Shown: positions 52,034 through 53,983 of the stretch, piece after piece
How the letters are laid out: each line of letters opens with the position of its first letter
How positions within the stretch are numbered: position 1 is the stretch's first letter
Assembly: GCA_964650245.1 (NCBI GenBank)
Contig: CAZYQK010000002.1
Location: 1 to 53,983 of the forward strand
DNA length: 53,983 bases
Reading direction: 5' to 3'
Source: an uncultured bacterium
GTDB taxonomy: Bacteria > Eisenbacteria > RBG-16-71-46
Translations under genes and position numbers: made by a program
Notes under the pieces: generated by a model
Database searches by the model: none
The model's input: the letters and a program-made list of their open reading frames with translations, nothing else
Told to the model about the DNA's origin: nothing

Positions 52034-52558
52034 ATGACGCGCTGGACCCGATGGGCCGGCTTCGGGGGCGTGCTGCTCGCCCTCACGGGCTGCGTGGCGG
52101 GCTACGGAATGAGCTCGCTCTCCGCGCGCCACAGCTTAACGAGCCGCCCCCACCCCAGCTACTACTGCTATGATTGTCACGGCGACCGGTTCTTCGACCC
52201 GTATTACGACTGGTGCGTCAACTACGGCTTCCGCTACTCGTGGGCGAGTCGGCCCGAGGTCACCCGGCTCTACCGCGAGCGGTACCTGAGGATCAAGGAG
52301 CGCCATCCCGAGTACGGCCGCTACCGCTACCGGTCGGACTATCGCGAGACGCGGCGCTATCGCGAGCCGGCAGACTACGAGGCCTGGCTGGAGCGCGGGC
52401 GGGGTGATCCCGGCCAGAGTGAGCGCCGCACGGAGCGCACCAGGCAAAGGGAGAAGAAACCGAACGACGCGGGTACGACCAAGACCAAGGACCGCGAGCG
52501 CAAGGAACCCCCCGGCTCGAAGCCGCGCGATTCCCTGCGGGAAGGAGTCTCAAGATGA
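52034..52558 (+). CDS. small lipoprotein with Cys-rich YYCYDCH...FDPYYDWC module and highly charged Arg/Glu/Tyr-rich tail
   Basis: ATG follows GAGGAG, 9 nt after the previous stop. The lipobox is LLALTGC. CXXCH lies at C45/C48/H49. The tail reads RYRYRSDYRETRRYREP...ERRTERTRQREKK. Confidence 0.7.
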   Translation: MTRWTRWAGFGGVLLALTGCVAGYGMSSLSARHSLTSRPHPSYYCYDCHGDRFFDPYYDWCVNYGFRYSWASRPEVTRLYRERYLRIKERHPEYGRYRYRSDYRETRRYREPADYEAWLERGRGDPGQSERRTERTRQREKKPNDAGTTKTKDRERKEPPGSKPRDSLREGVSR

Positions 52559-53983
52559 ACCGGAATACGTTGTGGAGCGCGGCCGCGTTGCTGGTTCTGG
52601 CGCTGGCGCCGAGCCCGGCCGGCGCGCGCGGCCTCTCGGTCGACGTGTGGACCGACCGCGGAAACGACGCGGTTTACCAGCCCGGCGACGAGATGCAGGT
52701 CAAGGTGCGTGCCTCGGAAGACGCCTACACGCTGGTCTACGAGATCGACGCCGAGGGCTACGTCCACGTGCTGTTCCCCTATCAGGGCCGGAGCGGGTTC
52801 ATCGAGGGCCGGCACACGTACCGGATCCCCGCCGACGATGCGGACGTCTCGCTCGCGGTCCAGGGTTCGGTGGGGCAGGCCTACATCGTGGCGATCGCCT
52901 CCGGTGATCCGTTCGAACCCCTGCCCTGGTACCTGCGGCCATACAACGCACAGGCCGAGGGCGTGGGCTACGTCGGGAAGCCCGAGGACGAAGAGGGCGT
53001 GACCGGCGAAGGCCGCATCGTGGGCGATCCGTTCGTGGCGATGGAGCGCATTCGGCGGCGCGTGCTCAAAGACCCCGACGATCCCCACCAGTTCGCCACC
53101 ACCTACGCCTCGTACTACGTGCACAACGAGGTGCGCTATCCGCGCTACATCTGCTACGACTGCCACCGGCCGGGGCGCTGGGCGTGGTGGGACGGGTTCG
53201 ACCCCTACTACTCGCAATGCAGCGTGTTCGACTTCCGCGTCAACCGGTCGTGGTACTGGGGCTCGAGCTACTGGTTCGGGCACGTGCCCTATTTCGTGTT
53301 CGTCTACCGCACCGACTGCCCGCCCCGCTACTACCGCTACTACAACCAGGGCTACTGGTACTCGTCCTGGGACGGCTGGCCGCGCTGGTGTGACCTGTGG
53401 GGCACCTCCACGCTCACCCGCTACAAGTCGCCCCCGCCGCCGGGCTACGTGCCGCCCGCGAAGTTCGGGCCGCGCACCAACTGGGGGCCCGCGCAGCCCG
53501 CGCCGCCGGGATTCCTGGTGAGCGAGACGCGCAAGCGTGACGGCCTGCGCACCCCGCTCCCGATCGGGCGCAATTCCGAGGCGCGGGGCGGAGAGAGCGG
53601 AGCCGATCGCTTCACCGGTGGCTTGCGAAAGTGGGGCGAAGGGCGGCTGCCATCGAGCCAGCCTCGCGACGAGGAGTCCAGCGCGCGCGGCCAGGGCGGG
53701 TCCGAGCGTCCGCGGTCCGAGGGCCGGCCGATGCCGAGCCACCAGCCGCGCGAGGAGGCCGCGCCGCGCGCCGTTCCGCGGCGCCAGGAGAACCCGTGGC
53801 CCGGCGTCCAGCGTCCGCGCGAGGAAAAGCCGGCGCCGGCGCCGGCGCCCGCGCCCAGAGTCGAGCCCCGGCGCGAGGAACGCCCCGCACCGCAGGCCGC
53901 TCCGCCGCGCGACGAACGGCGGCGTGAGCCGGCGCCCGCGCAGAAGCCGCGAGAGGAAGCGCCGGCCCGCGCCGCCGTTCGTC
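52555..53983 (+). CDS. secreted DUF4384-domain protein with the same Cys-rich module and a disordered Pro/Arg/Glu-rich tail (runs off the right edge)
   Basis: ATG at 52555 follows GGAAGGAG and overlaps the previous stop (ATGA). The frame is open to the window end, so it is absent from the ORF track. My translation gives MNRNTLWSAAALLVLALAPSPAGA|RGLSVDVWTDRGNDAVYQPGDEMQVKVRASEDAYTLVYEIDAEGYVHVLFPYQG (DUF4384 pattern), then YPRYICYDCHRPGRWAWWDGFDPYYSQCSVFDFRV, then PREE/PAPAPAP repeats. Confidence 0.75.
   Translation, partial: MNRNTLWSAAALLVLALAPSPAGARGLSVDVWTDRGNDAVYQPGDEMQVKVRASEDAYTLVYEIDAEGYVHVLFPYQGRSGFIEGRHTYRIPADDADVSLAVQGSVGQAYIVAIASGDPFEPLPWYLRPYNAQAEGVGYVGKPEDEEGVTGEGRIVGDPFVAMERIRRRVLKDPDDPHQFATTYASYYVHNEVRYPRYICYDCHRPGRWAWWDGFDPYYSQCSVFDFRVNRSWYWGSSYWFGHVPYFVFVYRTDCPPRYYRYYNQGYWYSSWDGWPRWCDLWGTSTLTRYKSPPPPGYVPPAKFGPRTNWGPAQPAPPGFLVSETRKRDGLRTPLPIGRNSEARGGESGADRFTGGLRKWGEGRLPSSQPRDEESSARGQGGSERPRSEGRPMPSHQPREEAAPRAVPRRQENPWPGVQRPREEKPAPAPAPAPRVEPRREERPAPQAAPPRDERRREPAPAQKPREEAPARAAVR

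What the first reader, a model, noticed from the sequence alone, without database searches (positions are those of the whole stretch)
52154..53259. Shared Cys-rich module with a CXXCH motif (Y-x-C-Y-D-C-H ... F-D-P-Y-Y-x2-C ... F-R ... S-W) in two adjacent exported proteins
Seen directly:
- The small lipoprotein has PSYYCYDCHGDRFFDPYYDWCVNYGFRYSW (nt 52154..52243).
- The DUF4384 protein has YPRYICYDCHRPGRWAWWDGFDPYYSQCSVFDFRVNRSWYW (nt 53137..53259).
- The two align with identical C-Y-D-C-H, F-D-P-Y-Y and a third Cys, in otherwise unrelated proteins.
- Both proteins carry export signals.

Established: CXXCH is the covalent heme-c attachment motif used on the periplasmic side. The organism matures c-type cytochromes, because its CtaC has a fused CIGCH cytochrome c domain in this same window.

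Inference: the module may be a minimal single-heme-binding unit, or alternatively a CCHC metal (zinc or iron) knuckle. Either way it would be a shared cofactor or interaction module linking the two proteins. The surrounding sequence is strikingly rich in Tyr, Trp and Arg. I do not recognise it as a described domain.
Basis: partly seen in the sequence, partly recalled or inferred. Interest (0 to 1): 0.7.

Follow-up and report, generated by a model that had tools for sequence, protein, structure and literature searches.

The report
Undescribed exported CXXCH domain, two proteins
Two neighbouring exported proteins share a real, previously undescribed small domain with three never-varying cysteines and one histidine; it probably holds a haem or a metal ion, and it sits in a conserved sigma-54-controlled outer-membrane gene cluster found in several related bacterial phyla.

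Summary
The lipoprotein A (52034-52558) and the DUF4384 protein B (52555->53982) share a homologous module: BLASTP E 1e-5, and family-versus-family hhalign E 5.8e-9 to 3.3e-13.

In 293 of 299 non-redundant relatives the pattern C-x-[DE]-C-H-x6-13-D-P-Y-x3-C is intact. The six exceptions are truncated or frameshifted sequences, plus one variant that lacks the first Cys. No Pfam, NCBIfam, PDB-sequence or Foldseek match covers the module.

An exhaustive search of 1.84 billion representatives finds it in only two architectures:
- a small lipoprotein (A-type);
- signal peptide + DUF4384 + module (B-type).

The gene context is conserved. A consensus sigma-54 promoter (51135-51149) is followed by an fn3-like lipoprotein, then A (present in about a third of species), then B, then a PorV/PorQ-family barrel just beyond the window. 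The fn3-lipoprotein/B pair occurs in Eisenbacteria, Fermentibacteria, Bacteroidota, Ignavibacteria and Gemmatimonadota. One lineage has A instead of B, so the module, not DUF4384, is the constant part.

The cofactor is unresolved. My estimates are haem c about 0.4, a Cys3His metal site about 0.3, and a redox or structural disulfide about 0.15. It is an undescribed domain family of moderate interest.

The parts
47185..50268 (+). Sigma-54 enhancer-binding protein (TPR - GAF - AAA+ sigma-54 interaction domain - HTH_8), probable regulator of the operon
   Evidence: Pfam Sigma54_activat E 6.2e-64, plus TPR_12, GAF and HTH_8. It sits in the same position upstream of the operon in Eisenbacteria loci.
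51135..51149 (+). Sigma-54 promoter, -24/-12 element TGGCACGTCGGTTGC
   Evidence: It is the only zero-mismatch match to TGGCAC-N5-TTGC in the window. An equivalent element lies upstream of the fn3-lipoprotein gene in 71 of 79 related loci, 52 of them exact, across phyla.
51197..52024 (+). fn3-like lipoprotein, first gene of the operon. The mechanical ORF starts at GTG 51134, but that overlaps the promoter. The likely start is ATG 51197 (MVRPWVAVMAAAVLTAGC).
   Evidence: ORF list and sequence. Weak fn3/DUF4998 hits. The homologue in L001 starts MFRHWMTAVTAVVLIAGC. The gene lies immediately upstream of the module protein in all loci that retain the upstream flank.
52034..52558 (+). Protein A: 174-aa lipoprotein (lipobox Cys20), module domain aa ~38-120, disordered basic tail aa 121-174
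   Evidence: 139 homologues, none with a Pfam domain. AF2 pLDDT is 87 or more for aa 41-120. Composition.
52151..52246 (+). Module in A (aa 40-71): HPSYYCYDCHGDRFFDPYYDWCVNYGFRYSWA. C45-x2-C48-H49 is at 52166-52180 and C61 at 52214-52216.
   Evidence: C45, C48, H49, P56, Y57, Y58, D59 and C61 are invariant in 111 A-type sequences.
52555..53982 (+). Protein B: signal peptide, DUF4384, module-containing C-terminal region, Pro/Arg/Glu-rich tail. The 3' end is cut by the window (the closest homologue is 469 aa).
   Evidence: AF2 of aa 1-330 gives pLDDT 84.8 and pTM 0.84.
52672..52908 (+). DUF4384 (PF14326) domain of B, aa 40-118
   Evidence: Pfam E 3.5e-17, 62.7 bits against a cutoff of 27.
53137..53250 (+). 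Module in B (aa 195-232): YPRYICYDCHRPGRWAWWDGFDPYYSQCSVFDFRVNRS. C200-x2-C203-H204 is at 53152-53166 and C222 at 53218-53220.
   Evidence: P196, R197, C203, H204, P217, Y218 and C222 are invariant in 138 B-type sequences. PR, C, C, H, PY and C are invariant in 21 divergent B-types.
53251..53409 (+). Remainder of B's aromatic-rich structured region (to aa ~285). Contains C255, which is invariant only within Eisenbacteria, and C279, which is variable.
   Evidence: The fourth Cys is absent in divergent B-types.
53425..53982 (+). Low-complexity Pro/Arg/Glu tail of B (aa 291-476; 20% Pro, 17% Arg)
   Evidence: Poorly conserved and repeat-like in homologues.

Best explanation
Shown:
- A and B carry two copies of one undescribed exported domain. 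It is aromatic-rich (25-33% Tyr/Trp/Phe) and has the invariant signature Y-x-C-x-[D/E]-C-H-x(6-13)-D-P-Y-x3-C.
- B is the widespread form (signal peptide + DUF4384 + this domain + disordered tail). A is a free-standing, lipid-anchored copy of the domain, found in a subset of Eisenbacteria.
- Both genes belong to a sigma-54-dependent operon: fn3-like lipoprotein - [A] - B - PorV/PorQ-family outer-membrane barrel.

Inferred mechanism, which is my committed best guess:
- After Sec export, the cytochrome c maturation system attaches one haem covalently to the two Cys of CXXCH. The adjacent His is the proximal iron ligand.
- No Met or second His is conserved. The sixth ligand would therefore be the invariant downstream Cys (thiolate) or the invariant Tyr of P-Y.
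- That ligation would give a low-potential haem suited to redox or small-ligand sensing, or to short-range electron transfer, at an outer-membrane complex built with the lipoprotein and the barrel.
For: Homology and conservation:
- Searches show homology between the two families.
- Invariant Cys/His appear in alignments of 25, 20, 111, 138 and 21 sequences.
- 293 of 299 proteins carry the full pattern.

Restricted architecture: only two architectures appear among 64 hits in 1.84 billion representatives.

Export: the lipobox Cys is invariant and signal peptides are present in B-types.

Points specific to haem:
- CXXCH with an absolutely conserved His directly after the second Cys. Established knowledge: this is the haem c attachment motif, and Cys(i), Cys(i+3), His(i+4) on one helical face fit a porphyrin better than a single ion.
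- AF2 starts a helix at C45 (H45-53).
- The organism makes haem c proteins (CtaC-cytochrome c fusion).
- These are the only other CXXCH motifs in the window.
- A domain of about 80 aa is large enough for one haem.
- Lipoprotein and outer-membrane c-type cytochromes are known (own knowledge).

Operon and context.
Against: - There is no sequence or fold similarity to any cytochrome family. Pfam and NCBIfam give nothing on the module. The only PDB profile hits to cytochromes have E above 1 and cover just the motif. Foldseek gives zero hits for A and only Ig-like sandwiches for B.
- No Met, and no second conserved His, is available as a distal ligand.
- No cytochrome, Ccs/Ccm, Dsb or other redox genes appear in any of the neighbourhoods examined.
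- Intact motifs occur in two MAGs labelled Fermentibacteria (L063, L075). [quoted passage not shown] Whether these particular MAGs lack Ccs/Ccm was not testable here.
- The third invariant Cys is explained more simply by a Cys3His metal site.
Confidence: 0.4

Rival explanations
1. Cys3-His metal site. The three invariant Cys and the invariant His (or the near-invariant Asp/Glu inside the motif) bind one Zn(II), or Cu(I) or Fe. The ion staples a small aromatic-rich domain whose real job is binding a partner such as the barrel, the fn3 lipoprotein or an envelope polymer.
For: - Exactly four potential ligands are invariant across phyla, and no others.
- The acidic residue at X2 is also near-invariant (D 290, E 3).
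- The best sub-threshold PDB profile hits include a PHD-type zinc finger, ZMYND11, at E 0.066-0.12.
- This reading would explain the motif's persistence in Fermentibacteria if they lack haem c.
- No redox genes lie nearby.
- Own knowledge: Cys-based Cu/Hg sites exist in exported proteins (MerP, CueP, Sco, CopG).
Against: - The proteins are Sec-exported into an oxidising compartment, where Cys-rich Zn sites are rare (own knowledge).
- Adjacent Cys and His rarely ligate the same ion.
- No His-to-Cys exchange occurs in about 300 sequences, although such swaps are common in zinc sites.
- No zinc-finger family matches at significance.
Confidence: 0.3
2. Redox-active or structural disulfide. The CXXC at a helix N-terminus forms a disulfide, with the third Cys as a resolving or partner thiol. 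This would make the domain an envelope thiol-redox sensor or relay, comparable to the CXXC of the lipoprotein NlpE, or simply a disulfide-stabilised fold.
For: - Exported location.
- CXXC lies at the start of a predicted helix.
- Eisenbacteria B proteins have a fourth invariant Cys (C255), which would allow two disulfides.
- Operon neighbours are signalling proteins: sigma-54 activators and histidine kinases.
Against: - An odd number (three) of invariant Cys in A-types and in divergent B-types.
- The absolute conservation of the His next to the second Cys is not explained.
- No thioredoxin-like fold or Dsb partner was detected.
Confidence: 0.15
3. Post-translationally cross-linked aromatic/Cys cofactor (a Cys-Tyr or Cys-Trp type) formed within the very Tyr/Trp-rich module.
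For: Extreme aromatic content next to the invariant Cys residues, with invariant Tyr residues flanking them.
Against: - No maturation enzyme is conserved in the operon. The radical SAM gene upstream is an RlmN-type gene several genes away.
- No similarity to known cross-linked cofactor proteins.
Confidence: 0.05

Closest known systems
c-type cytochromes (covalent haem via CXXCH), especially lipoprotein and outer-membrane monohaem forms, and His/Cys- or His/Tyr-ligated haems (SoxA, TsdA, DsrJ; MauG)
   Same: Sec-exported. Strictly conserved CXXCH at the start of a helix. Domain size adequate for one haem. One carrier is lipid-anchored. A beta-barrel gene is adjacent. A conserved Cys and a conserved Tyr are available as unusual sixth ligands.
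   Different: No sequence or fold match to any cytochrome family. No Met or His distal ligand. No electron-transfer partners nearby. Present in MAGs of a phylum reported to lack respiration genes. Haem attachment is untested.
DUF4384 (PF14326) proteins
   Same: B contains a bona fide DUF4384 domain, and NCBI/UniRef name its homologues 'DUF4384 domain-containing protein'.
   Different: The Pfam model stops at aa 118. The module (aa 195-232 and beyond) is outside it and unannotated. A-type proteins have the module without DUF4384.
CCHC/PHD-type zinc knuckles and Cys3His metal sites
   Same: Three Cys plus one His are invariant, with C-x2-C spacing. There is a weak profile resemblance to a PHD finger.
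   Different: Exported rather than cytoplasmic. The His is adjacent to the second Cys. The spacing differs from C-x2-C-x4-H-x4-C. No significant match.
NlpE-type outer-membrane lipoprotein sensors with a CXXC motif
   Same: Outer-membrane lipoprotein context. Exported CXXC. Genes for signalling proteins are adjacent.
   Different: No sequence similarity was detected. There are an extra invariant His and a third Cys. Regulation is sigma-54/bEBP-based rather than Cpx.
PorV/PorQ-partner surface proteins of type IX secretion (PorU, PorZ)
   Same: The operon's barrel meets the NCBIfam PorV/PorQ family cutoff. All carrier phyla belong to, or are close to, the FCB group.
   Different: A and B have no recognisable T9SS C-terminal domain. 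The barrel falls below the equivalog cutoffs for PorV and PorQ themselves. No other T9SS genes are in the locus.

Membership tests
c-type cytochrome (haem c protein) | CXXCH haem-attachment motif | tested here: met
   CYDCH is at A45-49 and B200-204. It is conserved in 293 of 299 relatives.
c-type cytochrome (haem c protein) | Export to the compartment where haem is attached | tested here: met
   The lipobox Cys20 is invariant. An N-terminal signal peptide is present in B and its homologues. This was judged by inspection; no signal-peptide predictor was available.
c-type cytochrome (haem c protein) | Host has a cytochrome c maturation system | tested here: inconclusive
   This is inferred for the window's organism from the CtaC-Cytochrom_C fusion. 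No Ccs or Ccm gene was seen in the window or loci. It was not testable for other carriers, such as the Fermentibacteria MAGs L063 and L075.
c-type cytochrome (haem c protein) | Conserved distal axial ligand (Met or His) | tested here: not met
   There is no Met in either domain, and no second invariant His. Only an invariant Cys and an invariant Tyr are available.
c-type cytochrome (haem c protein) | Sequence or fold similarity to a known cytochrome family | tested here: not met
   Pfam and NCBIfam give none. PDB profile hits have E above 1. Foldseek gives none.
c-type cytochrome (haem c protein) | Covalently bound haem demonstrated | not testable with these tools
   Needs haem staining, pyridine haemochrome or mass spectrometry.
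DUF4384 (PF14326) | Match to the Pfam model above the gathering score | tested here: met
   B scores 62.7 bits against a cutoff of 27 at aa 40-118. A has no match, so A is not a member.
CCHC zinc knuckle / zinc finger | Match to a zinc-finger family model, or canonical ligand spacing | tested here: not met
   No Pfam zinc-finger hit. The best PDB profile hit is a PHD finger at E 0.066. The spacing is C-x2-C-H-x(11-19)-C.
CCHC zinc knuckle / zinc finger | Four invariant metal ligands | tested here: met
   C, C, H and C are invariant.
PorV/PorQ family (operon barrel, outside the window) | NCBIfam NF033709 above cutoff | tested here: met
   Scores of 111, 114 and 174 bits against a cutoff of 90 for L001, L084 and L086. 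The proteins fall below the equivalog cutoffs for PorQ (220) and PorV (250).
Sigma-54-dependent operon | -24 GG / -12 GC promoter and a cognate enhancer-binding protein | tested here: met
   An exact TGGCAC-N5-TTGC lies at 51135-51149 and is conserved in 71 of 79 loci. The bEBP is at 47185-50268. Transcription itself was not tested.

The most novel reading that the evidence does not exclude
The module defines a new family of monohaem c-type cytochromes with thiolate (His/Cys) or tyrosinate ligation. These would be anchored at the outer membrane with a PorV/PorQ-type barrel and an fn3 lipoprotein. Together they would form a sigma-54-controlled redox or gas sensor, or a trans-outer-membrane electron conduit, conserved across Eisenbacteria, Bacteroidota, Ignavibacteria, Gemmatimonadota and relatives. 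Functionally this would parallel Cyc2 or MtrCAB, but it would be built from unrelated parts.
Probability: 0.12. Interest if true: 0.8.

Novelty: new variant of a known kind. Interest (0 to 1): 0.5.

Why it matters
The module has no family assignment. Homologues of A are all 'hypothetical protein', and homologues of B are named only for DUF4384. Defining it would annotate hundreds of proteins in poorly known phyla.

It would also flag a conserved sigma-54-regulated outer-membrane operon (fn3 lipoprotein, module protein, PorV/PorQ-like barrel) whose function is unknown.

If the site binds haem, it would be a new cytochrome fold with unusual ligation. Motif-based cytochrome censuses in metagenomes would need to account for it. 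If it binds a metal or acts as a thiol switch, it would be an unusual Cys-based site in an exported protein.

Either way it is directly testable by expressing a 150-residue lipoprotein.

Tried and rejected
- A word-index search with the 51-column module profile (the first attempt was rejected as too short) returned only 5 fragments. The exhaustive representative search did the job instead.
- Foldseek against the PDB gave zero matches for A. B matched only generic Ig-like sandwiches at E above 9e-3, from the DUF4384 part. Neither says anything about the module.
- PDB sequence-profile searches with the module and with the A family gave nothing significant.
- Pfam and NCBIfam scans of A, B and 21 divergent B-types found only DUF4384.
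- I tried to inspect Cys/His geometry in the AF2 models, but coordinates are not exposed to the script environment. The single most informative computation could therefore not be run.
- Literature on DUF4384 amounts to 7 papers, all incidental mentions and none functional. Literature on Eisenbacteria and cytochromes was not informative.
- An Rfam scan of the ~860-nt intergenic region upstream of the operon found no matches.
- Chance similarity is rejected by the family-level E-values and cross-phylum invariance.
- An exported Fe-S cluster is rejected because the signal peptides are Sec-type with no twin arginine (sequence inspection).
- The idea that the module is an A-B interaction device is rejected as a general explanation. 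Most species have B only, and one lineage has A only.
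Full report
OBSERVATION

The two peptide stretches are in the sequence exactly as quoted.
- Gene A is 52034..52558 and encodes 174 aa.
- Gene B begins at ATG 52555, overlapping A's TGA stop (ATGA). 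It runs off the window end after 476 codons. The closest homologue is 469 aa, so only a few residues are missing.
- A has a lipobox (LALTG-C20).
- B has a typical Sec signal peptide (MNRNTLWSAAALLVLALAPSPAGA/RG). This was read from the sequence; no predictor was available.
- B carries DUF4384 at aa 40-118, E 3.5e-17.
- No Pfam or NCBIfam model touches A or the module region of B.
- BLASTP aligns A40-69 with B195-230: 15/36 identical, pairwise E 1e-5.

IS IT MORE THAN CHANCE?

Yes.
- A has 139 homologues of about 145-206 aa, all unannotated, in Candidatus Eisenbacteria MAGs and metagenomes.
- B has 458 homologues. The top 120 all carry DUF4384 and are 60-80% identical.
- All 120 listed A homologues contain CYDCH, and all 120 listed B homologues contain C[YN]DCH.
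- In A-type alignments the invariant residues are C20 (lipobox), P39, Y43, C45, C48, H49, P56, Y57, Y58, D59, C61, W70, Y80 and Y99.
- In B-type alignments they are P196, R197, C203, H204, P217, Y218 and C222, with C200 and D202 above 90%.
- Profile-profile comparison of the A family with the Eisenbacteria B family gives 95.9% probability, E 5.8e-9, over A40-71/B195-232.
- Against 21 divergent B-type proteins the comparison gives 97.9%, E 3.3e-13, over 82 columns. That alignment runs on through a shared PRYxYxR segment, A up to residue 92.
- A therefore looks like a free-standing copy of B's post-DUF4384 region, not an unrelated protein that shares a short motif.

HOW WIDE IS THE FAMILY?

A 51-column profile of both module types was run against 1.84 billion representative proteins. 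It returned only 64 hits at E <= 1e-3. Three of these are repeat artefacts. The rest fall into just two architectures:
- small lipoproteins (A-type);
- signal peptide + DUF4384 + module + basic low-complexity tail (B-type).

A census of all 299 non-artefact proteins collected gives 293 with C-x-[D/E]-C-H-x(6-13)-D-P-Y-x(2-3)-C.
- The exceptions are three truncated fragments, two frameshifted sequences, and one protein (P0270) with GGTACH in place of CxxCH.
- X1 varies (Y, N, A, S).
- X2 is Asp in 290 sequences and Glu in 3.

A scan of one genome per species found 80 loci. Most are Eisenbacteria. Others are MAGs labelled Fermentibacteria (L063, L075), Bacteroidota (about ten), Ignavibacteria (L071) and Gemmatimonadota (L077). 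One representative is from Latescibacteria DG_63. In the most divergent loci the Asp before P-Y can be His or Arg, but the three Cys, the His and P-Y remain.

CONTEXT

tblastn of the neighbouring proteins against all loci shows the following.
- The fn3-like lipoprotein gene (window 51197-52024) lies immediately upstream of the B-type gene in every locus that retains the upstream flank, in all phyla.
- A is inserted between them in 26 of the 80 species-level loci, all labelled Eisenbacteria or binned with them.
- In Eisenbacteria a 296-aa barrel follows B. It lies beyond the window end. It meets the NCBIfam PorV/PorQ family cutoff (111-174 bits against 90), but not the PorV or PorQ equivalog cutoffs.
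- One lineage (L084/L085) has fn3 lipoprotein - A-type - barrel, with no DUF4384 gene in that slot. The module, not DUF4384, is therefore the constant component.
- Another lineage (L086) has a Peptidase_M6 protein between B and the barrel.

Outside Eisenbacteria, the pair is flanked by different genes:
- a FadL-like barrel follows it in Gemmatimonadota;
- DUF4783 plus a 1290-aa HAMP histidine kinase follow it in Ignavibacteria and Bacteroidota;
- an NtrC-type sigma-54 response regulator precedes it in Fermentibacteria, and a sulfatase-TPR protein follows.

Regulation:
- A TPR-GAF sigma-54 activator (window 47185-50268) precedes the operon in Eisenbacteria.
- The only exact TGGCAC-N5-TTGC in the window lies at 51135-51149, 48 nt before the likely ATG of the lipoprotein gene.
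- An equivalent element is present upstream of the lipoprotein gene in 71 of 79 loci, 52 of them exact, including Bacteroidota and Ignavibacteria.
- No cytochrome, Ccs/Ccm, Dsb or metal-handling gene was seen in any neighbourhood.

STRUCTURE

- AF2 with a 111-sequence alignment gives A a confident core: pLDDT 87 or more for aa 41-120. A helix starts exactly at C45 (H45-53), further helices lie at 74-90 and 107-120, and the tail is disordered.
- AF2 of B aa 1-330 with 138 sequences gives pLDDT 84.8 and pTM 0.84. This suggests that the DUF4384 sandwich and the module region form one compact unit.
- Foldseek against the PDB finds nothing for A. For B it finds only generic Ig-like sandwiches at E above 9e-3.
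- PDB sequence-profile searches give no significant hit. The top sub-threshold hits are a PHD zinc finger (E 0.066) and, on the motif only, multihaem cytochromes (E above 1).

WHAT DOES THE SITE HOLD?

The shared domain is 25-33% Tyr/Trp/Phe. It has no Met and no second conserved His.

In favour of haem c:
- The proteins are Sec-exported.
- The His directly following the second Cys is never substituted in about 300 sequences.
- The motif sits at a helix start.
- Established knowledge: Cys(i), Cys(i+3), His(i+4) is the geometry that fits a porphyrin, whereas adjacent Cys and His rarely bind one ion.
- The organism makes c-type cytochromes: CtaC with a fused PF00034 domain at 27792-28889.
- These are the only other CXXCH motifs in the window.
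- The sixth ligand would have to be the invariant Cys or the invariant Tyr, as in SoxA/TsdA/DsrJ or MauG (own knowledge).

Against haem c:
- There is no similarity to any cytochrome.
- There is no Met or His distal ligand.
- The gene context is not redox-related.
- Intact motifs occur in two MAGs labelled Fermentibacteria. [quoted passage not shown]

The alternatives:
- A Cys3His metal site explains the four invariant residues most economically. It is unusual for an exported protein.
- A redox or structural disulfide does not explain the invariant His or the odd Cys count.

My estimates are haem c 0.4, metal site 0.3, disulfide or thiol switch 0.15, cross-linked cofactor 0.05, and other 0.1.

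COMPARISON WITH KNOWN FAMILIES

- B is a DUF4384 protein by Pfam criteria. The module lies outside that model.
- Neither protein can be filed as a cytochrome. The motif and export features are met. The distal-ligand and family-similarity features were tested and not met. Haem attachment is untestable here.
- Neither protein matches a zinc-finger family.
- The operon resembles other outer-membrane lipoprotein/barrel assemblies and uses a PorV/PorQ-family barrel. It has no other type IX secretion hallmarks.

VERDICT

- The domain is undescribed and deeply conserved.
- It belongs to a conserved sigma-54 operon.
- I rate novelty as a new variant of a known kind (an exported CXXCH/Cys3His cofactor-type module in a new fold and context).
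- I rate interest as moderate (0.5).

Noticed in passing
window 51135-51149 (+), and loci L001-L085: There is an exact sigma-54 -24/-12 promoter, TGGCACGTCGGTTGC, ahead of the fn3-lipoprotein gene. The same element is conserved upstream of the orthologous gene in 71 of 79 loci across several phyla.
   Followed up: yes
window 51134-51197: The mechanical ORF start of the fn3-like lipoprotein (GTG 51134) overlaps the sigma-54 promoter. The real start is probably ATG 51197, preceded by GGGAGGGG, giving MVRPWVAVMAAAVLTAGC with a lipobox.
   Followed up: partly
window 50269-51134: About 860 nt with no convincing gene lie between the sigma-54 activator gene and the promoter. The stretch includes an AT-rich patch (tataaaacagattaatatcgaa, about 50279-50300) in an otherwise GC-rich genome. 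There is no Rfam match. A gap of similar length is present in L001. It could hold activator binding sites or an unannotated RNA.
   Followed up: partly
L084 7138-9673 and L085: One lineage has fn3 lipoprotein - A-type protein - PorV/PorQ barrel, with no DUF4384 gene in between. The free-standing module protein can apparently replace B.
   Followed up: partly
L001 11996-12886 (just beyond the window's 3' end): The gene after B encodes a 296-aa outer-membrane barrel. It meets the NCBIfam PorV/PorQ family cutoff (111 bits against 90), but not the PorV or PorQ equivalog cutoffs. Pfam sees only weak FadL/UPF0164 similarity.
   Followed up: yes
L071 6993-11588; L073 7951-11799: In Ignavibacteria and Bacteroidota MAGs the fn3-lipoprotein/B pair is followed by a ~1290-aa HAMP histidine kinase, and in L071 a DUF4783 protein precedes the kinase. 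In Fermentibacteria (L063) an NtrC-type sigma-54 response regulator precedes the pair. This suggests a link to envelope signalling.
   Followed up: partly
protein P0270 (metagenomic B-type, 390 aa): This is the single natural-looking exception to the motif. YPRYGGTACHRPG replaces YPRYxCxDCHRPG, so the first Cys is missing while the rest of the protein is intact. It could be a sequencing artefact or a single-Cys variant.
   Followed up: no
window 25878-31618: A cytochrome c oxidase cluster is present: CtaA/COX15 (25878-26813), CtaC with a fused cytochrome c domain (27792-28892), CtaD/COX1 with a subunit-IV-like C-terminal extension (28658-30727), and a COX4_pro protein (30857-31618).
   Followed up: partly
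window 53425-53982 and 52394-52555: Both A and B end in long low-complexity charged tails. B's is Pro/Arg/Glu-rich with PRxExPR-like repeats. A's is Arg/Lys/Glu-rich. The tails are poorly conserved in sequence but always present in homologues, and in other phyla they become Lys/Ser-rich. Their role is unknown.
   Followed up: no
window 51197-52024; L001 9164-9991: The fn3-like lipoprotein has a conserved C-x6-C pair (PCASGPGCPY in the window, PCASGQSCPY in L001). It also has a well-conserved C-terminal half with no family assignment.
   Followed up: no
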